DNA of 64,000 nt from Felis catus (Eukaryota), in contig NC_058368.1 in assembly GCF_018350175.1 (NCBI RefSeq), forward strand, positions 88,476,001 through 88,540,000, given 5' to 3'. The notes below the pieces were generated by a model. It ran no database searches. It saw only the letters and a program-made list of their open reading frames with translations, and was not told the origin of the DNA. A program made the translations under genes and the position numbers. Of this stretch, positions 9,741-62,880 are shown piece after piece; positions within the stretch are counted from its first letter, which is position 1, and each line of letters opens with the position of its first letter.

Positions 9741-11207
9741 GGATCCAAAATAAAAAGATATAGAACCATAACTATGTTTAAAATAAATATGGTCATGTTC
9801 TTTTCTTCAAGATTCTTGGCTTCATTTACTAAATGCCAGCCATGGTTCTGGGCACTGCAAAAAAATAAGATAATTCTGTTTAGGGGATCACATGCTAGCA
9901 GAGTAAAATACATTGTATTATTTGTCCCCATTTGTTCACCTTTCCTTCCTGGCCATCGTCCTCCATGTGGACCACATTTACTTTTCTTTCAGAATGGGCT
10001 TGACAGTATGCCTTGCTTTGGCCTATGGTATGTGAATGGCCTTGTTGCCAAAAGAGACCTTAAACATCCAGATTTTGGAGTCAAGTTTTGCCACAAACTG
10101 GTTGTGAGGTCTTGGGTCAGAATGGTCTATGCAGAAATACCTGTGTGCATACACTCTGCTTCTGTTTTCCTTTCTAACAGAATGGCACCCACCTCAACAA
10201 CTGGTCTTGAGTCCTAGAGGAGTCAATGTGTGTGAAAAACGTTGATTAGGATGCCCAGGTTTTGCTGAGTGTTACCTCCCTCTAGTTCTCTGCCACTGTC
10301 TCAGAGACATGGAGACCCCGCCCACCATCTCGAGAAGGCAGTGACTAGTGTGGGGCCGTGGTGACTGTGATTCTGAGCTGTGCATCACAAACACCAGGAA
10401 ACTCTTCTTTTGCATTCAAACACAACTATTTATTTAAAACTGGTAGACATCCTGAAGGCTATGCCACTCCCACTCCAAGAGGTGACCCACATACCAGTCC
10501 AACTTCCCTTTTATGTCCTCCTAGGGCGACTATGTGTGGTGACCTCTTCCTTTTGAAAATGTGGCCTGGAAGGCAAAAATCCCAAGGAAGCCCTGAATTT
10601 GGACAGAGAGGTCCTGAACTCCAGGAATCTAAGCCGGCCCCTGATTGGCCCACTGCCCAGGAGGTTGGCAGGACCCATCTTTGGGCTGGGGTAGCTCAGT
10701 CTATGACTCGTCTTTCTTAAGGCCTGGGTCTCCTCACTTGCTCCCAATTCCCTCCTCATGTTGGATCATGTCCAGGGACCTGATGCTCTGGCAAGTTCTT
10801 TCAGTCTCGTCCTTCGGCTACACCAAATTTAAACACAGATTTTTCATACTTTGATGTACTTCCACATATATTGTGAGGGAATTCTTCAACTCAAACTCTT
10901 TCTCAGAGAGTTATTTATCACTACCCCTACTGTTGTTAAAAGCCATTTGCATAAATTTGAGCTTTGTACCCAATACTCTGAAAGCTGTATCTATGGCTTT
11001 CCTTCCCCAGGACAGTTTCTGAGCATCAGGTTTTTCTCTTGTTCTTAGTCATGGCAGCCTTTGCTCACTCAGGAGAGAATTCCCCAAGATATAAAGGCTC
11101 CCCAAATGTTATGTTACTAGAATTCTGACTAAAGTTGGCCCCAGACCTGCAGGTCATGGACCCACCAGCATTTGGACACAGTGACCCAAAATGTGTACTG
11201 CACTCTG
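9741..11207 (+). repeat. Segmental duplication unit, copy A (partial)
   Basis: Collinear with 27770-29577 (excluding the L1 insert) and with the reverse complement of ~61290-62746; e.g. gagctgtgcatcacaaacaccaggaaactcttcttttgcatt at ~10376 and ~28743. Confidence 0.95.
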
Positions 11208-11209
11208 TA

Positions 11210-11550
11210 ATAGGTTTGAAACTCTGTGCTAGCATGTGTACTAGCTGTGTTCTAGTATTTGTCCTCAATTGAGTATAGATTGTATGCTATTGTGCATTAG
11301 TGAGTAGTAGTATGTACTGGATGTACTACTGTGTGTACAGATATATGCCAATTTTATACTAGTGTGTGATATAGCTGTATACTTGGATTTATGCAGGCAT
11401 GAGTACTAGCTTGTGTGCTGGTGTGTTCTAGTGAGCAATAAAATGCGCTAGACATCCTTGTGTGATCTAGTGTGTGTGCTAAGTGTGTACTGATGTACAC
11501 CCTTGTGTATACTAGTGTGCACTAATGTGTGTGTGCTAGTGTGTGCTCAT
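11210..11550. repeat. Degenerate TG-rich low-complexity repeat (gtgtgctag / gtactag motifs)
   Basis: Recurring tgtgctagt, gtactag and tgtgtact motifs. Confidence 0.7.
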
Positions 11551-11569
11551 GTGCACAAGGACGAAGAAA

Positions 11570-11690
11570 GGAGGACTGCGTCACAAATACCTTCATGGTA
11601 GCACCCCATGCAGGATGTCCTGTGCACAAATGATGTCATAGAGGACCAGCCAATCAGAATCCTCCTGAGCCTGGGGTCCTCAGGTGAGCG
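11570..11690 (+). promoter_or_regulatory. Possible decayed promoter/first exon
   Basis: CRE-like TGCGTCAC (11577) and TGATGTCA (11631), CCAATCAG (11650), donor-like CAG|GTGAG (11681-11688); GC-rich relative to flanks. Confidence 0.3.
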
Positions 11691-11919
11691 GTGGTGGTTG
11701 GGAGTGAGGGCAGAGTTTGAAAGAGACCCACAGCGCCCCCACAATCCTGGGCCTGGGACCATGCCCACAGCAGGGGTGCTGCATAGTTCCTGTGGTTCTA
11801 CTTCCTGGACTCCCTCCCTTTCACCTCCCGCAGAGACCTGCTACCTGGGCCTGCAGTTACCTGCTTCAGGCGAATTCTTTCTAGGGAACGTTCATGACTT
11901 GTGCTCTGAATTAGCTTTA

Positions 11920-12140: not shown

Positions 12141-12199
12141 AATGTCACTAAATATTCGCATTCTCCCAATGTATCTTCTTACACATTGCATAATGGTTT

Positions 12200-12680: not shown

Positions 12681-12726
<46 letters not shown>

Positions 12727-24100: not shown

Positions 24101-24539
24101 AAACTGATTTGGAAAAGTTTCAAAGAATTTCACACCTCACCACCATGTGGCTCCTGCTGCAATGGGTCACAGTGATGACATACTGCATGTTCTGACATAG
24201 GCAGTAGTTCTCAATAGGCCATGTGCTCCCCTTATGTCACATTACCTATTACAGACCAGTGAATTCTTAGAGATGAAAAGTAACAAAAATTCCAGGACAC
24301 AGTGTATTTTGATAACATACAACATCATAAATTGTTCTGAAGAAGGTCTGAAAATACTCTTTTAATGCAAGCCTGAATCTTCAAGCACATAAAATACATT
24401 TCTTATGCACAATTCAGCATCACTGGAAAAAATACCCATCACCAATCCGTGATATACATTTTTTTTCCTGATACACATTTTTAATGAGACCCAAAATCTT
24501 TGTTCAAGCTTTCCTACAAGGGCTTCTGCATTTCAGTGG

Positions 24540-24778
24540 CCATTCATTTTCTGTATCCTTTTTTTTGTCACCTGCAGGTATATCAGAATCTGTAGAATAT
24601 TTGATAGGGAAATGATACCCATGATGCTATCTGCCTCATTCACAACCAGCATCCCATGCACCTCAGCCCACTATATGCTGTCCAGGATATTTCTCCAGAT
24701 TACTGTAACTACCAATAAAAATGAAGTACTGTGAGAAGTGCTAAATGGCCTGGGACACTGTTATATCTAGGTTAGTGT

Positions 24779-24827
<49 letters not shown>

Positions 24828-27429: not shown

Positions 27430-27705
27430 ATATAGAGGTGATATAGCATGATGCATAGTAGGAGGCTATAGAGCCTACTGAGCCTGGGTTCACATCATAG
27501 CTCCACTGCCTTCTAGCTATGTGACACTGAATGAATTATTGAACCTCTCTGATTCTCAGTCGTGTCATCTACAACATGGAGAAAGCAATGCTTACCTCAT
27601 AAATTTGCTTGAAGATTAAAATGACATAACAAACCTAAAATCCTTAGCAGTGTTTTTAGCACATGGTAAGCACTCAAGAAGTGCTGTCTATTTTTATTTT
27701 TACTA
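27430..27705 (+). mobile_element. MIR
   Basis: cctgggttcacatcatagctccactgccttctagctatgtgac...aacctctctgattctcagt...agcacatggtaagcactcaa. Confidence 0.8.
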
Positions 27706-27846
27706 TTATGGATGTTATTGCCACAAATTGTGGGCTATATACATGCTTTCATGAAATCTAAATCCTTCTGGATTCAAAATGGGAAGAAATAGAATCATAA
27801 CCATATCTAAACGAAAGCTGCTCACATTCTTTCCTTCAAGATTCTT

Positions 27847-28207
27847 ACAACGAATGCATTATGGAGCTAGAAGGCATTATGTTAAGTGAGACACGTCAAT
27901 CAGAGAAAAACAAATACCATATGATTACACTCATAGGTGGAATTTAGGAAACAAAACAGATGATCATATGGGAAGGGGGGGGAAGAGGAGAGAGGGAAAC
28001 AAATCACTAGAGACTCTTCATTATAGAGAACCAACTGAGGGTTGATGGTGGAGATGGGTGGGAGATAAGCTAGATGGGTGATGGGCACTAAGGACAGCAC
28101 TTGTGATGAGGACTTGGTATTGTATGTAAGTGTTGAATCACTAAATTATATTCCTGAAACCAATATTGCAATGCATTTTGGCTAAGTAAAATTTAAATTA
28201 AAAAAAA
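27847..28207 (+). mobile_element. Truncated L1 3' end inserted in copy B only
   Basis: ggagctagaaggcattatgttaagtga... L1 3' UTR and A tail; TSD-like aagattctt / aatattctt; the site is empty in copies A and C. Confidence 0.88.
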
Positions 28208-29661
28208 TATTCTTGACTTTATTTATTAATGCCAGACATGGTTCTGGGCACTGGAAAAACAGAATAAATAAGATAATTCCCTTTAGGGGATTATAAGCCA
28301 GAAGAGTAAGGTAAATTCTCTTATTTGCCCCCAAGTTTTCACCTTTCTTTCCTGGACATGGCCCTCCCCGTGGACCACATTTACTTTTCTTTTCAAATGG
28401 GTTTGGCTATATGACTTGCTTTTGTCAATGGGATGTGAATGGCATTGTTACAAACAGAAACTTTAAGGATCCAGAGTTTGGAGCCAAGCTTTGCCACAAA
28501 GTGGTTGTGAGGTCGTAGGTCAGAAATGGTCTATTCAGAAATAGCTGTGTGTAGACACTGCTTCCATTTTTCTATCAGAATGGAACTCACCTCAGCAGCT
28601 GGCCTTGAGTTCTAGAGGAGCCAATGTATGTGAAAAATGTTGACTAAGATGGGCAGGTTGTACTTTCTCAGAGCCATGGAGACCCCTGCTCACCCTTTGG
28701 AGAATGCAGTTAGTAGTGTGGTGCAGTGGTAACTATGATCATGAGCTGTGCATCACAAACACCAGGAAACTCTTCTTTTGCATTCCAACACAACTATTTA
28801 TTTAAAGCTGGTAGACACCTTGAATGTCATGACACTCCCACTCTAGGATCTGACACACACAACAGCCCAGCTTCCCTTTCTATGTCCTCCTGGGATAGTA
28901 ATGTGTGGTGACCTCTCTCCTTTGAAAATGTGGCATGGAAGGCAAAAATTCCAAGGAAGCACTGAATTTGGAAAAATAATCTTTGAAGCTCAAAGACCTA
29001 ACCTGCCCCTGACACCTCCACCTCCAATGTGGAAGACCTCTCCTTGGACTGGAGGAGCTCAGTCTATGACTTCTCTGCTCTCAGGGGCTGGGACTCCTCC
29101 TTTTGTATCAGCCCCCTCCTCCTCCTGTTGGGCCATGTCCAGGGAGCCCTCTGGCATTGTCTTTCAGTCTTGTCCTTCAGGTACGTGAATTTAAAAAGCA
29201 GATTTTTCATACTTTGATGTGCTTTCACACACACTGTGAGGGAATTCTTTAGCTGAGACTTTTTTGGAGAGTTATTTATTACTGTCCCTGTCTCCCTGCC
29301 TGTGTTAAAAGCCATTTGTATACATTTGGGCTTTCAATCAATTCTCTCAAAGCTGTTTCTATGACTTTCATTCCTAAGGACAGCTTCTGAGCTGCAGGCC
29401 TTTCTCTGGTCCTTAGTCATGGCAGCCTTTTTTCACTCAGGAGAGAACTCCCCAAATGATAAAAGCTCCCCAAGTGGTGTGTTACCAAGACATCAGGCTG
29501 AAGTTGGCCTCAGACCTGTAGGTCATGGATCCATCAGAACCTGGGCACAGTGACCCAGTGTTGGCACTGTACTCTGAATGGCTGCAAGCAACCAGGTCTT
29601 GGCATCCAGCCATGAATCACTGACACGTGAGAGGGAACAACCTCTACCTTCCTTACCACCC

Positions 29662-30104
29662 TGAAAGAGCGGATCTAGGCCGGCTGACTCCATTTTGTTC
29701 TGTGTCCTCCATCTTGAGTGACTATGTCCCCAACATGGCCCCCTTTCCGGGAAAACCGCAGAAAGAAATTCCCGCTCAAACCTCAGACCACGCCTCCTCC
29801 CCTTGAATAATTTCCCTCTCACCCATTCAAACTTCCCGTTCAAACCATGCCCGGCAACCTGCGCAATGGGACTCTGACCCTTCCCCAGCCAATTGGCTAA
29901 GGCCACGATCATCACCCCACCAACTGTCCCTGGACCCCTATAAAACCTTTGTGCTTTTGAAACTTGCTCTCTCTCTGGCATCTCACTGCTGCATCGGTGC
30001 AGGTAGGGGATTGAGCTCGAGCTAGCTCGAATAAAGGCTCTTTGCTTTTGCATCAGACTCAGCTCCCTGGTGGTCTTTGGGGGTCACGAATTCTGGGCAT
30101 AACA
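29662..30104 (+). mobile_element. Solo ERV LTR (class I / gammaretrovirus-like)
   Basis: TG...CA termini (tgaaagag...cataaca), TATAAAA at ~29939, AATAAA at ~30030, flanks caccc / caccg; absent at the matching site in copy C (~61180). Confidence 0.88.
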
Positions 30105-30919
30105 CACCGCACACCTGACTCTGCTGGAGGGGGAATTTTTATCTGGGAAGTAGCCTCAAATTCCTCATGTCTGTGTACAGATGCCCCACTTTTCTGGGTT
30201 TGGGTTGTTCTTCCTTCTCTGTGTCCTGACTTTTCATGTTTCTTACAGAGTCACTGAATGTCTTAGGGTAGAAGGGGCCCTGGGACCAGTTTGTCCCTTT
30301 CTGGCAATGGTGGAACCACTTGGGGGACAAGAATCTGGTCGTGGCCAGGGTTGGCAAGAGGCAGTGGGAGGTTTCTAAGGCCCCTGTCCTCACTGCGTGC
30401 AACTTCTGGGCTCACATTCTTGGAAGGCAGCATTGGGTGGGATGGTTGGGGACTCCTACAGCCAGCTCCCTGGACCAGGCAGTGACGCTGAATTGCACAA
30501 GCTGAGGAGGTCTCTGGGAATAGCAAGATAAAGCCTGGGGCTGGATTCTAACTATGCATGTTGGTGGGTCTTAGAGGGTGGCATAGGGGTAGGCAGTTGA
30601 CCTTGTTGTGTGGAGGTCTGCAGGGGCACAGAGGTACAGGGGTCCTTCTGTGTGCACTGGAAGTTTCCCTTTGCTGAACAGGGAGTGTGGTGTGGAAACT
30701 GTGGAATTAAAGAAGGAAGGTGGGCTGGTTCCCATGGCTCTCTGAGGGCAGGTTGGGGACTGCCCCTTGCTGCATTTGCAGTCAGGAGCCATTGGCAGGG
30801 GGAAGGGGAGGGGAGTGGAATCCTATGGGTGCCTGGATTTTATAAAGTCCTGACCCTCCTAACATAACCACAGCACCCTGTATGCAAACACCAGGCTCCT
30901 CTCAGTACAGTCTCACGCT

Positions 30920-31400
30920 TATCTCCGTCCAATCACCAGGTGGCTTTCAGCGCCAGATGGCCTACAGGGTCAATCACCAGATGGCTATCCACTCACCTCA
31001 GTTTGTGGACAATCAGCAGACGACTCTCACTGTGGGCTCTCTTCTGTGCCCAACCACCAGGCAGCTTACATCATTGCCTCACACAAATGGCCAAAGAGAA
31101 AGCAGCTCTCACTGCAGTCTCCCTTCTGTGTCCAATCACCAAGCTGCCCTCAGCATGGTCTCGCTCATGTGACCAATAACCAGAGGGCTCTCATCATGGT
31201 CCCTCTTATGTGTCCAATCCCCACGTGTCTCTCAGCATGATCCCTCTCATGTGTTCAGTCACCAGGTGGCTCTCAGCAAAGACTAGCTCATGTGTCCAAT
31301 CAACAGGTGACTGTCATCACGGTCCCTCTGTTCATTGACCAATCACAAGGTGGCTCCCAGCTTATTCAGGCTTGCATGTCCAATCACCAGGCAGCTCTCA
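30920..31400 (+). promoter_or_regulatory. Tandem array of ~12 x ~41-bp units with consensus core TGTCCAATCACCAG (CCAAT boxes)
   Basis: Cores near 30927, 30968, 31006, 31046, 31087, 31128, 31169, 31210, 31251, 31292, 31335 and 31376; several have a degenerate CCAAT. Confidence 0.8.
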
Positions 31401-31520
31401 CCCCCACTCTCCTGCCTCCGTGGGGCATCTTGGATCCCTCTGTGGAGGGACCAGCAGATGCACATCCTCTCTCAGGGAAGGGCCTTGCTCCTTGTGGTCT
31501 ACTTCCTGTCCCAGGTGAGA
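31400..31520 (+). other. Putative non-coding first exon of copy B
   Basis: YY1-like GGCATCTTGG (~31424), ETS-like ACTTCCTG (31501), donor CAG|GTGAGA (GT at 31515); conserved in copy C. Confidence 0.45.
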
Positions 31521-31738
31521 AACTGGAGGGGGGAAAGTGATGTGAGGCTCACAGGGAAAGATGTCCTTGTATCTGGAAACAAAATATCAAGGAGCCAGCA
31601 ATATTACCAAGAAGTCATAAGAATTCTAATCAACCTTAGTTTATTCATTCATGTAATTAAATTTTGCACTTAAAATTTTTAAATTAGATCTGGAACGTTT
31701 TACCCAGTTAAGTTTTGACCTTAAAATTAACAGAAATC

Positions 31739-34700
31739 AGGAGAGGAGGGAAGATGGCGGCGTAGGAGGACGCTGGGCTCACCGCGCGTCCTGCTGATCA
31801 CTTAGATTCCACCTACACCTGCCTAAATAACCCAGAAAACCGCCAGAGGATTAGCAGAACGGAGTCTCTGGAGCCAAGCGCAGACGAGAGGCCCACAGAA
31901 GAGGGTAGGAAGGGCGGCAAGGCGGTGCGCGCTCCACGGACTGGCGGGAGGGAGCCGGGGCGGAGGGGTGGCTCGCCGGCCAAGCAGAGCCCCCGAGTCT
32001 GGCTTGCAAAAGCGGAGGGGCCTGACGGACTGTGTTCCGACAGCAAGCGCGACTTAGCGTCTGGGAGGTCATAAGTGAACAGCTCTGCTCGGAAAGCGGG
32101 AAGGCTGGAGGACAAAGGGAGGGAGAGCTGCTGAGCCCCTGGATGACAGAGCTCAGTTTGGTGGGGAACAAAGGCGCTCGCCAGCGCCATCTCCCCCGCC
32201 CATCCCCCAGCCAAAATCCCAAAGAGAACCAGTTCCTGCCAGGGAACTTGCTCGCTCCGCTCAAACACCCAACTCTGTGCTTCTGCGGAGCCAAACCTCC
32301 GGCAGCGGATCTGACTCCCTCCCGCTGCCACAGGGCCCCTCCTGAAGTGGATCACCTAAGGAGAAGCGAGCTAAGCCTGCCCCTCCTGCCCCTGTGCACC
32401 TTGCCTACCCACCCCAGCTAATAAGCCAGATCCCCAGCATCACAAGCCTGGCAGTGTGCAAGTAGCCCAGACGGGCCATGCCACCCCACAGTGAATCCCG
32501 CCCCTAGGAGAGGGGAAGAGAAGGCACACACCAGTCTGACTGTGGCCCCAGCGGTGGGCTGGGGGCAGACATCAGGTCAGACTGCGGCCCCACCCACCAA
32601 CGCCAGTTATACACCACAGCACAGGGGAAGTGCCCTGCAGGTCCTCACCACGCCAGGGACTATCCAAAATGACCAAGCGGAAGAATTCCCCTCAGAAGAA
32701 TCTCCAGGAAATAACAACAGCTAATGAGCTGATCAAAAAGGATTTAAATAATATAACAGAAAGTGAATTTAGAATAATAGTCATAAAATTAATCGCTGGG
32801 CTTGAAAACAGTATACAGGACAGCAGAGAATCTCTTGCTACAGAGATCAAGGGACTAAGGAACAGTCACGAGGAGCTGAAAAATGCTTTAAACGAAATGC
32901 ATAACAAAATGGAAACCACCACGGCTCGGATTGAAGAGGCAGAGGAGAGAATAGGTGAACTAGAGGATAAAGTTATGGAAAAAGAGGAAGCTGAGAAAAA
33001 GAGAGATAAAAAAATCCAGGAGTATGAGGGGAAAATTAGAGAACTAAGTGATACACTAAAAAGAAATAATATACGCATAATTGGTATCCCAGAGGAGGAA
33101 GAGAGAGGGAAAGGTGCTGAAGGGGTACTTGAAGAAATAATAGCTGAGAACTTCCCTGAACTGGGGAAGGAAAAAGGCACTGAAATCCAAGAGGCACAGA
33201 GAACTCCCTTCAGCCGTAACTTGAATCGATCTTCTGCATGACATATCATAGTGAAACTGGCAAAATACAAGGATAAAGAGAAAATTCTGAAAGCAGCAAG
33301 GGGTAAATGTGCCCTCACATATAAAGGGAGACCTATAAGACTTGTGACTGATCTCTCTTTTGAAACTTGGCAGGCCAGAAAGAATTGGCACGAGATTTTC
33401 AGGGTGCTAGACAGAAAAAATATGCAGCCGAGAATCCTTTATCCAGCAAGTCTGTCATTTAGAATAGAAGGAGAGATAAAGGTCTTCCCAAACAAACAAA
33501 AACTGAAGGAATTTGTCACCACTAAACCAGCCCTACAAGAGATCCTAAGGGGGACCCTGTGAGACAAAGTCCCAGAGACATCACTACAAGCATAAAACAT
33601 ACAGACATCACAATGACTCTAAACCCGTATCTTTCTATAATAACACTGAATGTAAATGGATTAAATGCGCCAACCAAAAGACATAGGGTATCAGAATGGA
33701 TAAAAAAACAAGACCCATCTATTTGCTGTCTACAAGAGACTCATTTTAGACCTGAGGACACCTTTAGATTGAGAGTGAGGGCATGGAGAACTATTTCTCA
33801 TGCTACTGGAAGCCAAAAGAAAGCTGGAGTAGCCATACTTATATCAGACAAACTAGACTTTAAATTAAAGGCTGTAACAAGAGATGAAGAAGGACATTAT
33901 ATAATAGTTACAGGGTCTATCCATCAGGAAGAGCTAACAATTATAAATGTCTATGCGCCGAATACCGGAGCCCCCAAATATATAAAACAATTACTCATAA
34001 ACATAAGCAACCTTATTGATAAGAATGTGGTAATTGCAGGGGACTTTAACACCCCACTTACAGAAATGGATAGATCATCTAGACACACGGTCAATAAAGA
34101 AACAAGGGCCCTGAATGAGACATTGGATCAGATGGACTTGACAGATATATTTAGAACTCTACATCCCAAAGCAACAGAATATACTTTCTTCTCGAGTGCA
34201 CATGGAACATTCTCCAAGATAGATCACAGACTGGGTCACAAAACAGCCCTTCATAAGTTTACAAGAATTGAAATTATACCATGCACACTTTCAGACCACA
34301 ATGCTATGAAGCTTGAAATCAACCACAGAAAAAAGTCTGGAAAACCTCCAAAAGCATGGAGGTTAAAGAACACCCTACTAAAGAATGAATGGGTCAACCA
34401 GGCAATTAGAGAAGAAATTAAAAAATATATGGAAACCAACGAAAATGAAAATACAACAATCCAAACACTTTGGGATGCAGCGAAGGCAGTCTTGAGAGGA
34501 AAATACATTGCAATCCAGGCCTATCTCAAGAAACAAGAAAAATCCCAAATACAAAATCTAATAGCACACCTAAAGGAACTAGAAGCAGAACAGCAAAGGC
34601 AGCTTAAACCCAGCAGAAGAAGAGAAATAATAAAGATCAGAGCAGAAATAAACAATATAGAATCTAAAAAAACTGTAGAGCAGATCAACGAAACCAAGAG

Positions 34701-37659
34701 TTGGTTTTTTGAAAAAATAAACAAAATTGACAAACCTCTAGCCAGGCTTCTCAAAAAGAAAAGGGAGATGACCCAAATAGATACAATCATGAATGAAAAT
34801 GGATCTTATTACAACCAATCCCTCAGAGATACAAACAATTATCAGGGAATACTATGAAAAATTATATGCCAACATTTTGGACAACCTGGAAGAAATGGAC
34901 AAATTCCTGAACACCCACACTCTTCCAAAACTCAATCAGGAGGAAATAGAAAGCTTGAACAGATCCATAACCAGCGAAGAAATTGAATCAGTTATCAAAA
35001 ATCTCCCAACAAATAAGAGTCCAGGACCAGATGGCTTCCCAGGGGAGTTCTACCAGATGTTTAAAGCAGAGATAATACCTATCCTTCTCAAGCTATTCCA
35101 AGAAATAGAAAGGGAAGGAAAACTTCCAGACTCATTCTATGAAGCCAATATTACTTTGATTCCTAAACCAGACAGAGACCCAGTAAAAAAAGAGAACTAC
35201 AGGCCAATATCCCTGATGAATATGGATGCAAAAATTCTCCATAAGATACTAGCAAGTCGAATTCAACGGCATATAAAAAGAATTATTCACCATGATCAAG
35301 TGGGATTCATTCCTGGGATGCAGGGCTGGTTCAACATTCTCAAATCAATCAACGTGATACATCACATTAACAAAAAAAAAAGAGAAGAACCATATGATCC
35401 TGTCAATCGACGCAGAAAAGGCCTTTGACAAAATTCAGCACCCTTTCTTAATAAAAACCCTTGAGAAAGTCGGGATAGAAGGAACATACTTAAAGATCAT
35501 AAAAGCCATTTATGAAAAGCCCACAGCTAACATCATCCTCAACGGGGAAAAACTGAAAGCTTTTTCCCTGAGATCAGGAACACGACAAGGATGCCCACTC
35601 TCACCGCTGCTGTTTAACATAGTGCTGGAAGTTCTAGAATCAGCAATCAGACAACAAAAGGAAATCAAAGGCATCAAAATTGGCAAAGATGAAGTCAAGC
35701 TTTCGCTTTTTGCAGATGACATGATATTATACATGGAAAACCCGATAGACTCCACCAAAAGTCTGCTAGAACTGATACATGAATTCAGCAAAGTTGCAGG
35801 ATACAAAATCAATGTACAGAAATCAGTTGCATTCTTATACACTAACAATGAAGCAACAGAAAGACAAATAAAGAAACTGATCCTATTCACAATTGCACCA
35901 AGAAGCATAAAATACCTAGGAATAAATCTAACCAAAGATGTAAAAGATCTGTATGCTGAAAACTATAGAAAGCTTATGAAGGTAATTGAAGAAGATTTAA
36001 AGAAATGGAACGACATTCCCTGCTCATGGATTGGAAGAATAAATATTGTCAAAATGTCAATACTACCCAAAGCTATCTACACATTCAATGCAATCCCAAT
36101 CAAAATTGCACCAGCATTCTTCTCGAAGGTAGAACAAGCAATCTTAAAATTCATATGGAACCACAAAAGGCCCCGAATAGCCAAAGTAATTTTGAAGAAG
36201 ACCAAAGCAGGAGGCATCACAATCCCAGACTTTAGCCTCTACTACAAAGCTGTCATCATCAAGACAGCATGGTATTGGCACAAAAACAGACACATAGACC
36301 AATGGGATAGAATAGAAACCCCATAACTAGACCCACAAACGTATGGCCAACTCATCTTTGACAAAGCAGGAAAGAACATCCAATGGAAAAAAGACAGTCT
36401 CTTTAACAAATGGTGCTGGGAGAACTGGACAGCAACATGTAGAAGGTTGAAACTAGACCACTTTCTCACACCATTCACAAAAATAAACTCAAAATGGATA
36501 AAGGACCTGAATGTGAGACAGGAAACCGTCAAAACCTTAGAGGAGAAAGCAGGAAAAGACCTCTCTGACCTCAGCCGTAGCAATCTCTTACTCGACACAT
36601 CCCCAAAGGCAAGGGAATTAAAAGCAAAAATGAATTACTGGGACCTTATGAAGATAAAAAGCTTCTGCACAGCAAAGGAAACAACCAACAAAACTAAAAG
36701 GCAATCAACGGAATGGGAAAAGATATTTGCAAATGACATATCGGACAAAGGGCTAGTATCCAAAATCTATAAAGAGCTCACCAAACTCCACACCCGAAAA
36801 ACAAATAACCCAGTGAAGAAATGGGCAGAAAACATGAATAGACACTTCTCTAAAGAAGACATCCGGATGGCCAACAGGCACATGAAAAGATGTTCAACGT
36901 CACTCCTTATCAGAGAAATAGAATCAAAACCACACTCAGATATCACCTCATGCCAGTCAGAGTGGCCAAAATGAACAAATCAGGAGACTATAGATGCTGG
37001 AGAGGATGTGGAGAAACGGGAACCCTCTTGCATTGTTGGTGGGAATGCAAATTGGTGCAGACACTCTGGAAAGCAGTGTGGAGGTTCCTCAGAAAATTAA
37101 AAATAGACCTACCCTATGACCCAGCAATAGCACTGCTAGGAATTTATCCAAGGGATACAGGAGTACGGATGCATAGGGGCACTTGTACCCCAGTGTTTAT
37201 AGCAGCACTCTCAACAATAGCCAAATTATGGAAAGAGCCTAAATGTCCATCAACTGATGAATGGATAAAGAAATTGTGGTTTATATACACAATGGAAAAC
37301 TACGTGGCAATGAGAAAAAATGAAATATGGCCTTTTGTAGCAACGTGGATGGAACTGGAGAGTGTGATGCTAAGTGAAATAAGCCATACAGAGAAAGACA
37401 GATACCATATAGTTTCACTCTTATGTGGATCCTGAGAAACTTAATAGAAACCCATGGGGGAGGGGAAGGAAAAAAAAAAGAGGTTAGAGTGGGAGAGAGC
37501 CAAAGCATAAGAAACTGTTAAAAACTGAGAACAAACTGAGGGTTGATGGGGGGTGGGAGGGAGGGGAGGGTGGGTAATGGGTATTGAGGAGGGCACCTTT
37601 TGGGATAAGCACTGGGTGTTGTATGGAAACCAATTTGACAATAAATTTCATATATAAAA
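31739..37659 (+). mobile_element. Young full-length felid-type L1 (~5.9 kb), inactivated
   Basis: CpG-rich 5' UTR; ORF1 32669-33562 with one premature TGA (33239-33241); ORF2 ~33613-37435 with frameshifts near 34800, 35390 and 36920 and a stop at 36324; perfect 16-bp TSD aaaattaacagaaatc (31723-31738 / 37660-37675) at a TT|AAAA site. Confidence 0.98.
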
Positions 37660-37675
37660 AAAATTAACAGAAATC

Positions 37676-38745: not shown

Positions 38746-39032
38746 GTCAGAGTAAAGTGGACACAGTGGGCCTGGAGGTGAGTGAGGTTGTGGCCACTGC
38801 TGAGGGGTGAGATGGCTCTGGGTCAACGTGGAGGTCCTGGGAAACAGCTGGATGAAAATGCAGGTGCCCATGTTCCATTCTATCACAGGGAATGACCCAC
38901 TCTGGAGGTGGGGAACATGCTTTCATGTGCTGCTGATGGGATACAAGGACTGAGACATGCTGGCAAGGACCTAGTGGGTGAACAGGCCACAGCATTGAGT
39001 GAGGCTAAGTCACACCAGGCTCCTTTGCTTAC

Positions 39033-43386: not shown

Positions 43387-43417
<31 letters not shown>

Positions 43418-44299
43418 AGTCCATCCTTTTCTATTTCTTTCAGTGTAAACTAAACTTCTCAAATGTTCTCAACACACAGAACACACTTCCAACCTCCCCA
43501 CTAGCTCCTGAAAGCAGCAGTCCTCTTACCATATCAGGCACCATCCGTCTTAGAAATGCCAGTCTCTTTCCTCCCAAGTCCCCCTAAAGTTTACCTTTTT
43601 CCAAAGAACCAGGTTATTCTTGGATCTTCTCAGTTTTTTCCAAGGAGCACACTGCCTTGAGCTTCACCCAGGTACAATTGGCACTATGCTCTCCCCCATC
43701 TCAGCTGTAGCCACAGGCAGGCTCCAGTCCATTGGAACACATAAGGCACTTGATCTCCCACACAGTCCCTAATTGTAAAAGGGACCATCTCCAGGAAGAA
43801 GCTGTACCTCAAACCTGACTTTCCTCTTTCCTTCTATCCCATTCATGACAGATTATCAGCTCTGCCTTTTAGAAGTGGCCACACTCTTCCATATCCATAG
43901 ACAGCCTCCAGTTTCCCAGATGCACCTGTTCCCTCCTTCCCCTTCTCTACCTTGCTGTGTCCAGCCACCCCTCCACCTGGAGCTGCCAGTAGGAATCCAT
44001 ATGTCTTCCCCAATCCCTGCAGTTCTTTTGTGGTTCAGAACAGAGTCAACATTCACGTGACTCCCTCAAGTTTCTCCCTGCTTCCATAACCCTACAGGAT
44101 CTCACCAGAGGGAGGGTATGGTTCCATGTCTCCTATCTCCACCTGATTCTCTGAATGTCTTGTCATATTTGATCTTAGAAGGGTTCCATCAGACAGGAAC
44201 CTATAGTCAGGAAATACCTGCTGTAGTGGCCGGAGTTTGGAGACTTCACATCAGGATCCAACCTCAAGTTTAGCAACCATCTGTCTGGGAGGTCTCAGG
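39033..44299 (-). pseudogene. Unidentified multi-exon gene relic (unprocessed pseudogene)
   Basis: AG/GT-bounded segments on minus: 44299-44218, ~43140-43016 (acceptor uncertain), 41708-41652 (57 nt), 41268-41212 (57 nt), 40920-40725, 39479-39192 (288 nt), 39107-39033 (75 nt); 84-nt intron 39191-39108 with a CTGAC branch point and polypyrimidine tract; in-frame stops present. Confidence 0.5.
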
Positions 44300-44937
44300 C
44301 TAGAAATGTTTTATGCTGAAATACTTGTATACAGACATACTGCTTATACTTTCCTTTCTGTTAGAATGGTGTTAAACTAAGCAGTTGGATGTGGATTCTA
44401 GAAGTCAATGTATTGGGAAATGTTGATGGAGACAGGCAGGTTGTGCCCAGTGTCAGCTCTCTGTAGTTCACTGACACTTTTTCAGATCCATGGAGACCCC
44501 TGCACATGATCAGGACAATGTGATTACTCATAAGACACATTAGTAACTGCAAGCCAAAATGCACATCAGTATAACCCAGGGATTGTTTTTCTTAAATTAA
44601 TTATTCTGAAATGATAATTTAACGTTATTTATTTAATCCTCATATAAATTTTAAAGTCATGTCACTCCTCCACTCCTGGAGATGATCACACTTTTCCCAC
44701 CTCCCCTTTTATATCTTCTAGAGTGCATGGGTGAAGAAACATTAGTCTACTGTGCTCAGGGCCTGAGTCTCCTCTGCAAATTTCTCCAAACCCTACCCCC
44801 TGCCCCCCGCCTGATGTCTGGATATGAGTTTTGGGGTTTTTTTTTGAAATACAACATTTAATTTTATTTAATCTATAGCTTTTAGCCAATAAAATAGAAA
44901 TTATGATTTTGGTTTTTTCTATTTTTTGACAGTACAT

Positions 44938-53500: not shown

Positions 53501-53509
53501 GATGTCACA

Positions 53510-54530: not shown

Positions 54531-54534
54531 CAAT

Positions 54535-56930
54535 ATGCATGGCTGTTGTTTCAGAGTCTCTGTCCTTCAGTGCCTTGACCCTAACCTTACCAATGGTTCT
54601 TGCCCTCCAGAGGCCCACCTACTAGGTCTAAGCCAAAAACAGAATCAGGGCCCATTCCAGGCATACATGATTCAGTGAGAAGCCCAGAAGTTGCCAATGC
54701 CAATTCCAAGGTAATGATGGGACTACAGAGGGTATTCTGAACCCAATCCTATACCTCACCCACACACTTGGCCAGACCCCTAGCTGAACCCCTAAACCTG
54801 ACACTCACCCTGGCCCTTGCACTCAACAAAGCCCTCTGGGGGAAACATGGCCTGATGTTGGTTCTGACCTTGTCTCCTCCAGGGACATAAACCTAACCGT
54901 AACCTTGGCTGTGGTATTAGGGTTCTCCTGTCTTAGCTCTGGAGAAAGAATGGGCTTGAGACCCTTGACCGGCATGACATTCATCAGGGAAGAATGTGGC
55001 AGATCACCATGACATTTTAATGTCTGGGATGGAACTCCAGAAAGGGATCCCAGCTACAGCTGGTCTGTCTCACATTTTCAGCCAATCCCTGAAGCCAAAC
55101 CCAAGTCTGATCAACACGCTGACATGTGCTCTCAACCATTCCCATGGAGGAGATCACTGCACTGCTTGCGGTTCATCCCATGCCACCCTGGGGACCTGAA
55201 CCCTGTCCTTTCAATGCCTCTGGCTCTGATGTTGTCCACCAAGCAGGTGTGAGCAGAGAAGTGACTTGGGGCACTTGACTGGTACAGAATCGCTGAGAGA
55301 GAAAGCCACATGTAAGCCAAGACATTTCCACATGAGGCTTGCGCCGATAGAAGGAGATCCTGAACTCAAACATCCACCTGGCCCACACAGTCAGCCTGCC
55401 CTTGAAGCCAGATCCTAAGCCTCACTCATGCTCTAATAAGCACCCACCATTCAGGCCTCTGAGGGGAGCCTGCACTGCTATTCGCTCATCCCCTGCCCCC
55501 TCCTACTACCTAAATGAATGGCTAGCCATGGATCTGGATTCTAGGGGCATCACACGCCAACTGTGGGCCAGGAACAGAACCACTGTTCATGGCCACCTGA
55601 GATTTCTTCAGGGAGGAAGCCAGATTTCGTCATCACAAGTACAAGACCATATGGGCCTGCAGACACACATCATGAGCCCAGACCTTGGCCTCTCTGAGTC
55701 ACTTGGTGAAACCCTGGAGCCAAATGATAAGCCTGACTAGAACACTAACACGCACCCTCAACTCAGTCTTCTGGGCAGGTCATTGCATGACTGTTGTTTC
55801 AGATGCTATGTCTTCCAGTGGCTTGATCCTAACCCTACCCATGGTTCTTGGCCTCAGGGGGCCCTCCTAGTAGGTCTCAGAAAACAACAGATTCAGGTCC
55901 CTTGCCAGGCATACAATGATTCAGTTAGAAGCCCAAAAATTCTCCATGCCACTTCCAAGGCAATGATGGGTATACAGAATAAAATGGAAGTTGGAACCAA
56001 ATCGTACACCTCATCCACACACTTGGCCAGCGCCCTAGCCAAAATTCTCAGTCTGAAACTCACCTTGTCCCTCGTGCTCAACACAACCCTCTGTGGGGAA
56101 CACAGCCGTGATGTTGGTTCTGACCTTGTCTCCTCCAGGGATCTAACCCTAACCCTAAACTTGGTTCTGGTCTTAGGGGTTCCCCATCCTAGCTCTGAAG
56201 AAAGAATGGACTTGAAACCCTTTAGTGGCATGACATCCATAAGGGAGGGATGCAGCCAAGCACCATGACATCTTCATATCCAGGATGGAACTTCAGGAAA
56301 GGATCCAGAGTTAAAGCATAAGCCTGTCCCACATGTTCCGCCAACCCATGAAGCCAAATCCTAAGCCTAACCTGCACTCTCACATATGCCCTCAATCATT
56401 CCCAAAGGGGAGATCACTGCCTTGTTTGTGTTTCACCACCTGCCACTATGGGGAACGAAACCATAACCCTAGTCATGCCTCTGGCCCTAAGGTAGTACAC
56501 CAAGCAGGTGTGAGGAGAGTAGTTATCTGGGTCTTGGGTAATTTTACTGGCACAGAATCACTTAGCAAGAAATCCTGATGTTCACCATGACATTTCCACC
56601 CCGAGGCTTGTGCCTATAGAAGGATATCTTCAGCCCAAAACTCTACCTGGCTCCCAGAGTTTGCTGCTCCTTGAAGCCAGCTCCTACTGCTCACCTGTGT
56701 ACTATAAATCACCCTCCACTTAGCCCTCAGGGAAAGCCCTTCACTGCTACTGCTTCATCCCCTGCCCCCTCTCAGGTCCTAACCTACCCTAGCCCCTTAC
56801 CCCTGTGGCCTCAAGAGTTTCCAGGCCACAGCTGTGGTCCAGAATCAGAATTGTTGCCACCTGAGATTTCTTCAGGGAGGAAGCCAGAAGTTTGTCATGA
56901 CATGTACAAGGCCCATCAGTGGGAAGACTA
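54535..56930. repeat. Degenerate satellite, ~313-bp monomer x ~8, arranged as two ~1.25-kb 4-mer higher-order units, with TAACCC-like motifs
   Basis: Anchor recurs near 54677, 54988, 55297, 55611, 55925, 56243, 56562 and 56875; monomer n resembles n+4 most (tgaccttgtctcctccaggga at ~54865 and ~56121). Confidence 0.85.
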
Positions 56931-56959
56931 ACAACATGGTTCTATAGCAAATGCTAAAC

Positions 56960-58620
56960 TCAACACATCCATCTGAGCTTGGAAATAAGTTAGAAAATGG
57001 TAGAAATTAGGTGTTGTACTTCTTACCATAATGAAAATATTAAACATAGAGAAGATTAAGCTGAGTGAGAAATTATTAACTAATTGCCAGAATGGCATTC
57101 AGCACTCATAAGAAGGGGATAACATAATCCAGAGGTTCAATGTTGTCACTGTCTCATGTCCAGCCTCCAATAAAAAACTACTCAATGTCTAAGTAAGCAG
57201 GGAAATGGGACTCAAGACTAGGATAATAAACAGTTCACAGCCAAAGACTCCCAAATAAGAGGTGACAAAGTGAAAAGAGAAATTAGAAATATGATCAGGA
57301 ACTAATGAAAAACGTACATGTGATGTGGGAGAAAGGGAATTCCTAAAGAAGAATCAAATCAAATTTCGAGAGCTGAAAATAGGATATGTGAAATGAAAAA
57401 CTACTCCAAATGGGCTTTAAGAATTGGATGAGGGGTGCTTGGGTGGCTCACAAGGTTGAGCGTCTGACTTCGGCCCAGGCCATGATCTCATGGTTTGTGA
57501 GTTCGAGCCCCGTGTTGCGCTCTGTGATGACAGCTCAGAGTCTGCAACCTGCTTCGGATTCTGTGTTTCCTTCTCTTTCTTCCCCTCCCCAACTTGTGCT
57601 CTATTTCCCTTTCAAAAATAAATAAATATTAAAACATGAATGATGGCATGGTGAAGACAAAAAACAAACAAACAAACAAACAACTGAGTGCTTAAATGTA
57701 CAGCAATAAGAACTATGCAAGAAGCCCAGAGAAACAAGGAGATGGGAAACCAATGTAAAGACCATCAGTGACTCATAGGACAACACCAGAAAGGATGGGG
57801 CACAAGAGTAATGGCTTAAATGTCCAAAATGTATGAAAACCATAAAACCACCCATGCAAGAGTTTCTGTGAGTGCCAAGCAGAAAACAAACACAAAATCA
57901 GACGGTGACCTGTAATAATGAAATTGTGGACATAACTGCAAAAGACAAAATCTGAAAATGGTCAGAAAAAACATGATACACATGGGGAAAATGGTAAGTG
58001 GGATGACAACTCTTTATTAGAAGAAAATGCAAACCAATAACGTTGAATGGCATCTTTAAAGTCTGCCAGTGCCAACCTTGAATTCCACACCTAGAAAAAT
58101 TTCCTTAAATGAGGGAAGAAAACTAAATCCATTTATGGAATATCAACACTGAGAATGTCTGTGAATAGACTTTCACTATGAGAAATGTCAATGGGACTTC
58201 TTCAGGGCAACAGAAAACAGTACCAGATGGGCACTGGTATCTAGGAGGAATGAAAAAGGAAGAAATAGTAATTGGAAAAATATCAGACTTTCATTATCTA
58301 ACTTAAAATTTTCCTTTACAAATACTAGACAGTTTAAAGAAATATAAAAGCAATATACTGTTGAGTATGTAGGAAGCGTCAAGAAAAATATAGGACAACA
58401 ATGGCACAAAGGTCAGAAAGGGAAAATGGAAGTTGATTGTTCTGAGTGTATTGTTCATACAATGAAGTAACATATGTATGTGGGGAAATAGTATTTGATG
58501 GCAACGGGTGACAGATTAATGACTCAAGTTATCAATTCTCAAACAACCACTAAGACACATTAGCCACCCCACTTAAAAAAAGAAGGATAGCTAGTAAATC
58601 TTTACTAGACATTGCGGAGG
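56960..58620 (+). mobile_element. Ancient L1M 5'/ORF1-region fragment
   Basis: A-rich decayed ORF1-like text (gaatcaaatcaaatttcgagagctgaaaa; gttgaatggcatctttaaagtctg). Confidence 0.6.
57431..57634 (+). mobile_element. SINEC_Fc-type SINE
   Basis: ggggtgcttgggtggctca...gagcgtctgacttcggcccagg...gacagctcagag...cctgcttcggattctgtg (feliform form). Confidence 0.93.
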
Positions 58621-58668
58621 AAATACCAAAATAATACCAACATAATATTCATGAATCGCAGTAAACTG

Positions 58669-58837
58669 AGGGGTGCTCAGGTGGCCAAGTCTGTTAAGTG
58701 TACGACTCTTGATTTTGGCCTAGGTCATGATTTCAGGGTCTGTGAGATTGAGTCCTGTGTGGGGACAGCACAGAACCTGCATGGGATTGTGTCTCTCTGT
58801 CCCTCCCCTGTTCACACACACTCTCTCTCTCTCTCAG
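58669..58837 (+). mobile_element. SINEC lacking its A tail
   Basis: SINE head and CT tract present, but aaaataaataaa is absent after 58837. Confidence 0.85.
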
Positions 58838-60044
58838 TTGTGACCAGACAGCTTGAAGGAATGAAGCCCCAGGAAACAGCAGCCAGATACCTTGCTTGCA
58901 AGGTTCCCATCAGTCACTTCAGGTGAGTGAAGGGTCCACTCTGGGAAAGTGCCAGTACCTCAGGATATTTCGGAGACCTCGAGAAGAAAAGAGTTAACCC
59001 CAATCAGTGGGGACTGCAGGCAATGTCTGGTGGCAAGTATATGGCTTGGCCTCTGCCCTTGAGGAGCTATTAGAAATTAATCTGATATTGCATATAAGTT
59101 CCAGCAAAGTGGGTTGAAAACAGCCTACATGATTGAGGGCTATCCTTGCTGCACTTATGTAAAGAACCAGGCTGAGAATCATGAAAGTACACTTGCTTTG
59201 CAAACAATTTAGTCTCACTTGCACCATAGTTGGAAGTAAGGGGAATAATTTAGTTTTTGTATTTATGATTTCAGCATTTAGCACGACCCGAGTAGTTGCA
59301 AATAGAGTTTTCTGTGCACAGAGCTTCCTGCAGTTTTTGTAAAGAAAACCCTCAATTGACAGAAACAGGCAGTGGATGAGTGGAAACAGCACCATGGTCC
59401 TCAGTCCCCACATGCAGGACGGGAATCACAGAAAATTGAACTCAAGTCATGACAAAGTGATGTTGGAGACCATTAGCATATACATGGGGTGATTAATTTA
59501 AGAGAACAATGAAGATTCATCACACAGTTGTGTGGATGTTAGATTCTAAACCTGTTCACTGTAAACTGTACGAGGGCTGGATCCTTCCAGGCTCTTCTGA
59601 TGTCTGGCAGCAACTCTCCAAACCCATGTTTGCAATTTTTTCCTAGTTTCTGACTTGGAATCACTGAGGACTAAAGTGCCCTTTTCCCAAAGCCATGCAG
59701 GCTGATGTGGGACAATGTGATGCTTCCAGACCAACATCTAGAAATTTCCGCTGGGGTTGCCTTCAGAACTCAGAAGTGGGGCTATAATCTGCCCTAATCT
59801 TTAACCTTTTTCATTTTGTTACTATGGAAATGTCCCTTAACAACCTGTTGCAAATATGCACACCCCAATTTTGGTGCACCTGCACCCCCACCTCCTAAAA
59901 TGAGACACAACTGCAGGTGCGTTGACCTCTTCTGAGGACTAATAGCCTGACTTATGACACAGGAAACACCAACGCAGGGCAGGTCCAACCCTATTTACAC
60001 CACATCCCCCACTGCCTATGAACCTTAGGTCAGTGACCTCACCA

Positions 60045-62880
60045 CCAGTTTCTCACCTTGCACAGGAAGTCTGGGCCACAGGGGACAGGGAGTGAAGCTC
60101 TGTGCTGAGAGAGGAAGGTCACGATGCTGTTCTGTGCTGTCCCTCAACTGCAGGATCCAAGATGGCCCATCCGGGATGAGGGGAGGAGAGCAGAGTGACA
60201 GCGCCCTGGTGATTGGACACCTAAGACAAATATGAGAGGCTCCTGGTGATTGGGCATGTGAGCAAGACTACACTGAGAGCCGCTTGTTGATTGGACACAG
60301 GAGTGAGACCATCATGAGAGCTTCCTGGTGATTGGACACAGGAGTGAGACCATTCTGAGGGCCTTGGTGTTTGCCAAGAGGTGCTGTGGTTACGTTAGGG
60401 GGGTAAGGACATTAACAAATCGAGGCACCCATGGCTCCCAGTGCAGAGACCGGGTTCCATTCCCCTACCATGCCAATGGCTCCTGACTACATAGTCAGCA
60501 CAGTGGAGCCCCCAACATGTCCTCAGAGAGCCATGGATCCAGCCCTACTCCTTTCTCTAATTCCATAATTTTCACACCATACACCCTGCTCAGCAAAGGG
60601 AATCTTCCATTCCATAGGTTGAGCCACCTGCACCTCTTTGCCCCTGTAGATAGGCAGCTGGCCTTCCATACAGCAAGTCCAGCTGCCTATCCTGCCCCCA
60701 CCCTCCTCGACCCATCTGTATTTATAGTGGGGGTCCAGCCTCAGGCTTTCCTTTGCTGTTCCCAGAGCCATCCTCTGTCTATGCAGCTCATCACCACTGC
60801 CTGGTTCCTGGGATCTGGCTGAAAGAGTCTGCTACCAGTCCTCACGCACACTGCTCCATGCTGCCTTCCAAGAATGTGTGCCAAGAAGTTTGGGCAGTGA
60901 GGATCAGGACCTCAGAAACTCCCACTGCCTCCTGTGAGCCCTGGCTATGAATATGTTCTTGGCCCCCAAGTGGTGAACCATTACCATAAAGTGACAAACT
61001 GGCCCCAGGGACCCTTCCACCCTAACACATCTTGTGACTCTGTAAGACACATGGAAGGTCAGGACACAGAGCAGGAAGAACAACCCAAACAGAAATGTGG
61101 GGCATCTCTACCTAGACATGAGGAATTTGAGGCTATTACTCAAGCACCAATTCCCCCTCCAGCAGAGGGTCAGGTATAGGGATGCCTGTGAAGGTAGAGG
61201 TTGTTTTGATCCCTCTGTGGGGGGTTTACTCCCACATGTCAGTGATTCATGGCTGGATTCCAAGACCCAGTTGGTGCTTTCAGCCATCAAGTGCAGTACA
61301 CGTATTGGGTCACTGTGCTCAGGTGCTGGTGGATCCATGGCATACAGGTTTGGGGCCAACTTCAGTCTGATGTCCTGGTAACATAGCACTTAGGGAGCCA
61401 TTATCTTTTTGGGAATTTTCTCTTGAGTGAGTAAAGGCTTCCATGACTAAGGACAAGGGAAAGACCCTCATCTGGGAACCTGTCCTTCGAAAGAAAGCCA
61501 TAGATAAAGCTTTGAGAAATTTGGGTGGAAAACTCATGTTTACACAAATGCTTTTAATATAGGCAGGGAAAGTGATAAATAACTCTTCAAGAAAGAGTTT
61601 GAGTTAAATAATTCCCTCACATGTGTGTGTGTGTGGGGGGGCACCACAGCATGAAAAATCTGATTTTAATTTGGTGTACCTGAAAGATGAGGTTGAAAGA
61701 CCTTGCCAGAGCACCATGTCTCCTTGAACATGCTGTACGTGAGGAGGGAGCTGGGAGCAAGGAGGGAGACCCAGGCCAGGGGAACAGAGGAGTCATAGGC
61801 TGAGCTCTTCCAGCCTAAGGAGAGGTCCTCCAGACAGGCAGTGGGGGGAGGTGTCAGGGGCAGTTTAGATCTTTGAGCTTCAGAGTACTTTGTCCACATT
61901 CAGGGCTTCCTGGAAGATTTTGCCTTCTAGGCCACATTTTCAAAGGACACAGGTCACCACACATGCTGACCCCAGGAGGACATAGAAGGAAACCTGGGCT
62001 GGTGTGTGGGTCACCTCCTGGAGTGGAGCTAGCATGAGCTTCAGTATGTCTATCAGCTTTAATTAAATGCAAAAGAAGAGCATTTTGGTGATTGTGATGC
62101 ATACTTCAGGATTGTGGTCACCAAAGTTCCACACCACTCCCTGCATTCCCTGGTGGTGGGTAAGGTCTCCATGGCTCTTAGACAGTGGCATGAACTACAG
62201 GGTGCTGGCATACTGCACAACATGGCGATTCTAGTCAACATTTGTCACACACATTGACTCCTCTAGAACTCAAGACCAGATGCTGAGGTGGGTGCCATTC
62301 TGGTAGAAAGGAAAATGGAAGCAGAATGTCTGCACACAGATATTTCTGCAGAGAGCATTTCTGACCTAAGACCTCACAACCAGTTTGTGTTGACACTTGG
62401 GTCTGAGTTCTGGCCATTTAACCTCTTAGTTTGCAACAAGGCCATTCAAATTCCATTGGCTAAAGCAAGTCATACAGCCAAGCCCATTTGGAAAGAAATG
62501 TGAATGTGGTCCACGGGGAGAGCCATGACCGGGAAGAGAAGGTGAATAACATGGGGACAAATAATACAACTTACCTTACTCTGCTAGCCTATAATCCCCT
62601 AAACAGAATTACCTGATTTATTCTGTTTTGCAGTGGCAAGGAACATGCCTAGTATTTAGCAAATGAAGACAAGAAGATTGAAGGAAAGAACATGGCCCAC
62701 TTTATTTGAAACATGTTTGTGGTTCTATGTCTTTTCATTTGGATCCAGAAAGATTTAGGTTTGAATGCAAGTACCCTTGTTTTTAGTGCATGATTTTTGG
62801 CAGTAACATCGGTCATAGTTAAAATAAGAACAGACAACATTTCTTGAGTGTTTAACATGAATTATAAACACTGCTAGGTT
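60045..62880 (-). repeat. Segmental duplication unit, copy C (inverted relative to A and B)
   Basis: Reverse complement is collinear with 27640-31530 minus B's insertions; includes the shared MIR tail at ~62790-62880. Confidence 0.95.
60055..60375 (-). promoter_or_regulatory. Putative promoter and first exon of copy C: ~4-5 CCAAT units, YY1-like and ETS-like motifs, splice donor
   Basis: tgattgg cores on + near 60209, 60247, 60288 and 60329; CCAAGATGGC at 60157-60166; caggaagt at ~60063; donor AAG|GTGAGA (GT at 60056-60055). Confidence 0.55.

What the first reader, a model, noticed from the sequence alone, without database searches (positions are those of the whole stretch)
9741..62880. Three diverged copies of one promoter-bearing duplicon, two facing each other as an inverted repeat
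Seen: A (9741-11207, +), B (27640-31530, +) and C (60045-62880, -) are collinear paralogs. B and C share a MIR tail, so the unit is a segmental duplication rather than a transposon. B and C both end in a CCAAT array, YY1-like and ETS-like motifs and a splice donor, and point toward each other across ~28.5 kb. Downstream of each copy the sequence differs (TG repeat plus another promoter-like segment; ERV-like DNA plus L1; unique DNA). Inference: a 'core duplicon' promoter module repeatedly joined to new downstream DNA, as in ampliconic testis-gene regions, possibly producing convergent lncRNAs or chimeric transcripts.
Basis: partly seen in the sequence, partly recalled or inferred. Interest (0 to 1): 0.7.

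Follow-up and report, generated by a model that had tools for sequence, protein, structure and literature searches.

The report
Old duplicated promoter-like exon in cats
An ancient stretch of cat DNA that looks like the start of a gene was copied locally several times, and one copy now appears as a middle exon in a predicted cat transcript, a known kind of genome recycling and not a young testis amplicon.

Summary
The paralogy is real. A, B and C are 75-81% identical (K2P 0.21-0.24), and a fourth partial copy, D, was missed. Only B and C carry the 41-bp CCAAT array and donor; A stops before them. The YY1-like core is intact only in C.

The locus lies on a ~239-Mb felid autosome and is far too diverged to be an amplicon, palindrome or core duplicon. 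Identity shows no peak over the promoter or exon.

New evidence: the predicted cat gene model LOC109492746 uses C's donor. It reads 60220-60057, then 58977 onward, matching the window at 54/54 and 18/18 residues. But C is an internal exon there, joined from exons outside the window through an acceptor present in only 1 of 10 array units. Tiger and lion models splice instead into a decayed POM121-like stretch upstream of C.

Best reading: old local copies of a gene 5' end, with C a candidate hybrid first/internal exon. No RNA reads were examined, so transcription starts, testis expression and convergent transcription are untested. The scan's earlier notes held no look-alike on other DNA.

The parts
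9738..11207 (+). Copy A: upstream 1.47 kb of the unit only; no array, exon or donor; left end abuts an L1, right end abuts a degenerate TG-rich repeat
11640..11700 (+). Separate promoter-like spot (AGCCAATCAG box, then CAG|GTGAGC); not shown homologous to the B/C end
27645..31555 (+). Copy B, complete unit, starting in a MIR-like tail (label recalled)
27847..28205 (+). L1 3' fragment inserted into B after duplication (absent from A and C; near-duplicated flank)
29662..30104 (+). 443-bp solo-LTR-like insertion (TG...CA) in B only
30909..31398 (+). B CCAAT minisatellite, 12 units of ~41 bp, 7 intact CCAAT
31376..31514 (+). B exon-like segment ending at donor CAG|GTGAGA (intron starts 31515); YY1-like core broken; no AG at the position of C's acceptor
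31724..37675 (+). Full-length-type L1 with 15-bp target-site duplication, inserted ~210 bp downstream of B's donor
44252..44740 (+). Copy D, older or more decayed fragment of the upstream part (K2P 0.32-0.38)
58891..58977 (-). Exon after C in cat model LOC109492746 (acceptor at 58977, model stop near 58920; donor at 58890 inferred from sequence only)
60057..60220 (-). C exon, 164 bp: acceptor inside the last array unit, YY1-like and ETS-like motifs, donor AAG|GTGAGA; encodes residues 286-339 of XP_044918233.1 exactly
60198..60355 (-). C CCAAT minisatellite, 4 units (spacing 41, 41, 37)
60015..62876 (-). Copy C, complete unit
63158..63821 (-). Decayed POM121-like coding remnant just upstream of C; 63821-63677 is the last coding exon of tiger and lion models of the same locus

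Best explanation
The unit is the 5' end of an old gene: about 2.5 kb of upstream DNA, a 41-bp CCAAT minisatellite promoter, a non-coding first exon and its donor. It was copied locally several times, once inverted, on the largest felid autosome, roughly 50-80 Myr ago (inferred from recalled rates). The copies then decayed independently. A and D lost the promoter end. B expanded its array but lost the YY1-like core and took L1/LTR insertions. C kept its motifs and gained a splice acceptor in its last, shortened array unit. A transcript from an uncharacterised felid gene to the right of the window can therefore splice into C and on to 58977. C works like a hybrid first/internal exon. Shown: paralogy, anatomy, later insertions, and the exact match to the predicted cat model. 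Inferred: the age, the ancestral promoter role, NF-Y binding (phased CCAAT boxes, four helical turns apart), and any start at C.
For: Uniform K2P 0.21-0.24 among A/B/C against 0.11 for an L1 pair. The copies share no common ends, and B-only insertions postdate the copying. The donor is shared by B and C, but AG at the acceptor position occurs in 1 of 10 array units examined (0 of 6 in B, 1 of 4 in C); an ancestral donor without an ancestral acceptor suggests a first exon. XP_044918233.1 matches the window at 54/54 and 18/18 residues across canonical AG/GT junctions. Tiger and lion models continue the same upstream peptide into a different exon at 63821. The CCAAT core is the best-kept part of the unit (0.89 vs 0.67). 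Gain of a 3' splice site by first exons is a described route (PMC11797052).
Against: No RNA reads were examined, and the cat model is a prediction whose support is unknown. Only 1 of 6 candidate proteins scored with the C-exon peptide, so coding use is seen in one model only. The exon and donor flank are 77% identical against 80% upstream, and identical runs are no richer than background (5 runs of 9 or more in 178 columns, about 4 expected), so no purifying selection is shown. CpG o/e is 0.17-0.18. The CCAAT-core conservation is partly circular, because units were registered on the motif. Every unit carries a weak CTCAG-like acceptor motif, and B has other AGs a few bases upstream. No parent gene was identified.
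Confidence: 0.55

Rival explanations
1. Never a promoter. The array is a plain minisatellite, and the C exon is an old internal or cryptic exon picked up by noisy splicing of the upstream felid gene. B is a dead paralogous piece.
For: The only annotated use is internal. There is no conservation peak and the region is CpG-poor. C's CCAAT cluster is reached by 17 of 100 shuffles. Most boxes have T before CCAAT, a poor NF-Y flank (recalled consensus).
Against: Array, ETS-like site and donor sit in promoter order in both copies. The acceptor is unique to one shortened unit of C. The 41-bp spacing is a known preferred spacing for NF-Y sites (PMC4982600).
Confidence: 0.22
2. The array plus exon is a very old LTR (an LTR12-like U3 with a donor) that was inserted before the duplication and carried along.
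For: LTR12 U3 regions hold 5-17 repeats of ~41 bp with CCAAT boxes (PMC11853044). B has 12 units.
Against: No AATAAA/ATTAAA or TATA match lies between array and donor in B or C. Identity is uniform across the supposed boundary. No dispersed copy turned up in the searches available, which hold little mammalian DNA.
Confidence: 0.11
3. One reading: an active core-duplicon promoter module, repeatedly joined to new DNA, drives convergent or chimeric testis transcripts.
For: Four local copies with different flanks. C's exon sits in a mosaic predicted transcript.
Against: Copies are 75-81% identical, on an autosome. Only 2 of 4 copies carry the promoter end. The unit encodes no gene family. The nested L1 pair (86% over 5052 bp) is a better inverted repeat than B/C and arose independently.
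Confidence: 0.1

Closest known systems
Hybrid first-internal exons (Mick et al. 2024, PMC11797052; abstract and section 21 read)
   Same: An exon with promoter elements that is also used internally; first exons become hybrid by gaining a 3' splice site or an upstream first exon
   Different: Here internal use rests on one predicted model, and first-exon use is not shown
LTR12/ERV9 U3 enhancer repeats (PMC11853044, PMC4982600; passages read)
   Same: Tandem ~41-bp units each holding a CCAAT box, variable copy number, upstream of a putative start
   Different: Primate retroviral LTR (recalled). The cat array lacks a polyA signal before the donor and lies inside a local duplication; sequence homology could not be tested
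Primate core duplicons such as LCR16a/NPIP, and the HYDIN2 promoter segment (PMC7419210, PMC5345166; passages read)
   Same: A duplicated segment with differing flanks that contributes to fusion-type transcripts
   Different: Those are young, high-identity, transcribed, dispersed, and (for cores) gene-encoding. This is ~3 kb, 75-81% identical, local, with no encoded family
X-chromosome amplicon palindromes (PMC8327919; passages read)
   Same: Two copies in inverted orientation around a spacer
   Different: Arms are 2.9-3.9 kb at 75-80% identity on an autosome, against >8 kb and >99%; no sign of homogenisation

Membership tests
Amplicon/palindrome | Arm-to-arm identity >99%, arms >8 kb | tested here: not met
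   75-80% over 2.9-3.9 kb; definition in PMC8327919
Amplicon/palindrome | Sex-chromosome location with testis-biased gene family | tested here: not met
   Matching models on 238-244 Mb contigs; earlier notes place PARP4, WDR95, CAB39L, PCDH9 and LMO7 on the same piece. Expression untested
Core duplicon | Recent high-identity segmental duplication (90% or more, recalled convention) | tested here: not met
   K2P 0.21-0.24
Core duplicon | Overrepresented seed across many interspersed duplication blocks | not testable with these tools
   No genome held for this window; only 4 local copies seen
Core duplicon | Encodes an expanded, often positively selected gene family | tested here: not met
   0 of 272 open stretches outside L1 reached a Pfam cut-off; the C peptide hits one model only
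Core duplicon | Transcriptionally active | tested here: inconclusive
   One predicted model uses C internally; no reads examined
Transposable element / LTR | Shared defined termini among copies | tested here: not met
   A, B, C and D start and end at different points
Transposable element / LTR | PolyA signal downstream of the promoter within the element | tested here: not met
   None between array and donor in B or C
Transposable element / LTR | Match to a curated repeat family | not testable with these tools
   No Dfam/Repbase library available
LTR12-type U3 array | 5-17 tandem ~41-bp repeats with CCAAT | tested here: inconclusive
   B has 12 units (7 intact), C has 4
LTR12-type U3 array | GATA and MZF1 sites in the repeats; homology to ERV9 | not tested
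   No motif or homology test run
Hybrid first-internal exon | Used as an internal exon | tested here: met
   At gene-model level only: XP_044918233.1
Hybrid first-internal exon | Also used as a first exon (start near the 3' splice site) | not testable with these tools
   No CAGE or read data examined

The most novel reading that the evidence does not exclude
The 41-bp CCAAT minisatellite is a non-retroviral counterpart of the LTR12 enhancer: a live NF-Y promoter cassette whose strength is set by repeat number (12 units in B, 4 in C). It seeds new carnivore transcripts, and one repeat unit was turned into a splice acceptor so that C switches between start and internal exon.
Probability: 0.12. 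Interest if true: 0.6.

Novelty: new member of a known kind. Interest (0 to 1): 0.27.

Why it matters
Modest. It is a tidy paired example, with B serving as a built-in comparison for C, of how a duplicated gene start may be recycled as an internal exon by gaining an acceptor. It also shows a 41-bp CCAAT array outside the known LTR12 setting. It does not point to a new ampliconic or testis gene system, and no function is shown.

Tried and rejected
Rfam: 0 matches at gathering score; 3 weak SCARNA7 matches on dinucleotide repeats. No tRNAs.

Pfam on 272 open stretches of 55 aa or more, from six regions outside the main L1s: none reached a cut-off, 4 had weak hits. This scan is insensitive: it missed the AMPK-gamma pseudogene that one search found.

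Hunches of a decayed TRIM exon at 40.6-41.5 kb and an Ig-like exon at 38.9-40.3 kb found no support. An initial guess of an X-linked MAGE-type promoter was dropped once the locus proved autosomal.

No 5' continuation of A was found beyond the L1 block (83 and 59 of 200 shuffles as high). No B-side homologue of C's downstream exon exists in the window. Protein atlas: no usable hit. Metagenome scans: 0 loci.

Twenty public runs hold words of 54540-64000, 5 of them on record as RNA. None was laid, so they are not used as evidence. The first POM121 Pfam hits (E 0.03 and 0.003) are not significant alone. No RNA folding was run.
Full report
Observation. Self-BLAST of the window and alignments confirm that A, B and C are collinear paralogues, with C inverted. 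Ungapped identity is 79-81% and K2P distance 0.21-0.24 for all three pairs. A fourth fragment, D (~44252-44740, +), is more diverged (K2P 0.32-0.38; 0 of 200 shuffles reach the score of its 3' part). A covers only the upstream 1.47 kb and has no array, exon or donor. The CCAAT/donor spot at 11640-11700 is not significantly similar to the B end (17 of 200 shuffles as high). So two copies, not three, carry the promoter-like end.

Anatomy of B and C. Both end in a ~41-bp tandem array: 12 units in B with 7 intact CCAAT, and 4 units in C, all intact. An exon-like segment follows, with ACTTCCTG and AG|GTGAGA; homology runs about 40 bp past the donor. GCCATCTT is present in C, while B reads GGCATCTT. 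CpG o/e is 0.17-0.18, and no TATA or polyA-signal match lies between array and donor. B's cluster is unusual against shuffles (2 of 100) and C's is not (17 of 100); tandem growth explains clustering in any case. The CCAAT columns are the best kept in the unit (0.89 vs 0.67 over 16 units), but units were registered on the motif and one was out of register, so this is weak. Identity along the unit is flat (0.73-0.86 per 200 columns), and the exon with its donor flank is 77%. Runs of identity there (5 of 9 bases or more in 178 columns) match background (about 4 expected). No purifying selection is shown.

Later insertions. B alone holds an L1 3' fragment with a near-duplicated flank and a 443-bp TG...CA solo LTR. 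About 210 bp after its donor sits an L1 with a 15-bp target-site duplication. Repeat names are recalled; no repeat library was available. An oppositely oriented L1 at 44962-49956 is 86% identical to that L1 over 5052 bp (K2P 0.11). It is younger than the B/C duplication and a better inverted repeat than B/C. At recalled neutral rates of 1.5-2.2e-9 per site per year the duplication dates to about 50-80 Myr; this is an inference.

Location. No genome is held for the window. Earlier scan notes place PARP4, WDR95, CAB39L, PCDH9, LMO7 and an olfactory-receptor cluster 88, 78, 66, 46, 38 and 1.8 Mb before it on the same piece (unchecked notes). The protein models that match the window lie on contigs of 238-244 Mb in tiger, lion, jaguar, clouded leopard and cat. 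By recall that is chromosome A1, an autosome.

Use of the donor. A profile search with the reading frame upstream of C returned 2 proteins. One was a tiger model, LOC122231206 X2, whose last 47 residues match 63820-63680 (-) at 96%. The other was an unnamed POM121-family protein (Pfam E 4.8e-11) matching 63519-63158 at ~39% (E 1.6e-10). Searching with the tiger protein returned 3 clusters of 454 candidates, all felid, including cat LOC109492746 (XP_044918233.1). Residues 286-339 of the cat protein equal the translation of 60219-60058 exactly, and residues 341-358 equal the translation of the exon starting at 58977. The junctions are TTAG|G at 60220, AAG|GT at 60057/60056 and CGAG|G at 58977, with a 1079-bp intron. 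Residues 1-285 have no 8-residue match in the window, so those exons lie outside it, upstream on the minus strand. The shared upstream peptide continues with W in cat and C in tiger and lion. That fits one upstream donor spliced either to C or to the POM121-like exon (inference). Only 1 of 6 candidates scored with the C-exon peptide; non-coding use would be invisible to this search. These are predicted models, and I could not see their read support. RNA reads were not examined, so starts, tissue and convergent transcription remain open.

Mechanism. The AG used as acceptor stands in 1 of 10 array units examined: C's last, 37-bp unit (6 of B's 12 units and all 4 of C's were listed). The donor is shared by B and C. 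A shared donor with a private acceptor is what an ancestral first exon that gained an acceptor would look like. Against this, B has other AGs nearby and each unit carries a weak acceptor-like motif. Mick et al. (PMC11797052; abstract and section 21) report that first exons commonly become hybrid this way. CCAAT boxes at 41 bp lie on one helical face, and this spacing is prominent at LTR12 (PMC4982600, passages). LTR12 U3 holds 5-17 repeats of ~41 bp (PMC11853044, passages). Flanking bases matter for NF-Y binding (PMC3730095, passages), and most boxes here have T before CCAAT, which I recall as unfavourable. So the array may work like an LTR12 enhancer, but membership is not supported.

Comparison. 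Core duplicons are overrepresented, transcribed, gene-encoding seeds (PMC7419210, passages; PMC5345166, passages). Amplicon palindromes need arms >8 kb at >99% (PMC8327919, passages). The unit fails the identity and size tests. Searches for the four LOC identifiers and for CCAAT + minisatellite + promoter + carnivore + duplicated returned 0 papers. Searches were seen as listings, apart from the papers named above. No supplements were read. Earlier scan notes held no look-alike.

Verdict. This is an old local duplication of a promoter-like gene end, with one copy appearing as an internal exon of a predicted felid transcript. New member of a known kind; interest 0.27.

Noticed in passing
window 24400-25560 (-): Processed pseudogene of an AMPK gamma subunit (phmmer to solved gamma-1 chains, E 4e-29; looks like PRKAG2 by recall), with a 43-base A run expanded inside the coding sequence at 24783-24825.
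   Followed up: partly
window 54540-56940: Degenerate tandem array of about eight ~312-bp units arranged as two 1250-bp blocks (77% identical). Two units hold a 27-bp AG...GT microexon-like stretch on the minus strand, downstream of C. No family hit.
   Followed up: partly
window 63158-63821 (-): Decayed POM121-like reading frame whose middle is used as the last coding exon in tiger and lion gene models.
   Followed up: partly
right of window 64000 (outside): Uncharacterised felid gene (LOC109492746 and relatives in four big-cat species), with no non-felid relative among 454 candidates and no Pfam family at cut-off; a possible lineage-specific gene.
   Followed up: partly
window 32659-37662 (+) and 44962-49956 (-): Inverted pair of L1 elements, 86% identical over 5 kb, nested between B and C.
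   Followed up: partly
window 62931-63110: Very young 84-bp tandem duplication (98-99% identical) just upstream of C.
   Followed up: no
window 38730-43400: GC-rich, CpG-poor unique DNA with several donor-like sites, intron-like in appearance; no coding remnant identified.
   Followed up: partly
window 11640-11900 (+): Independent promoter-like spot with a consensus-type CCAAT box and donor, after a degenerate TG-rich repeat at 11210-11570.
   Followed up: partly
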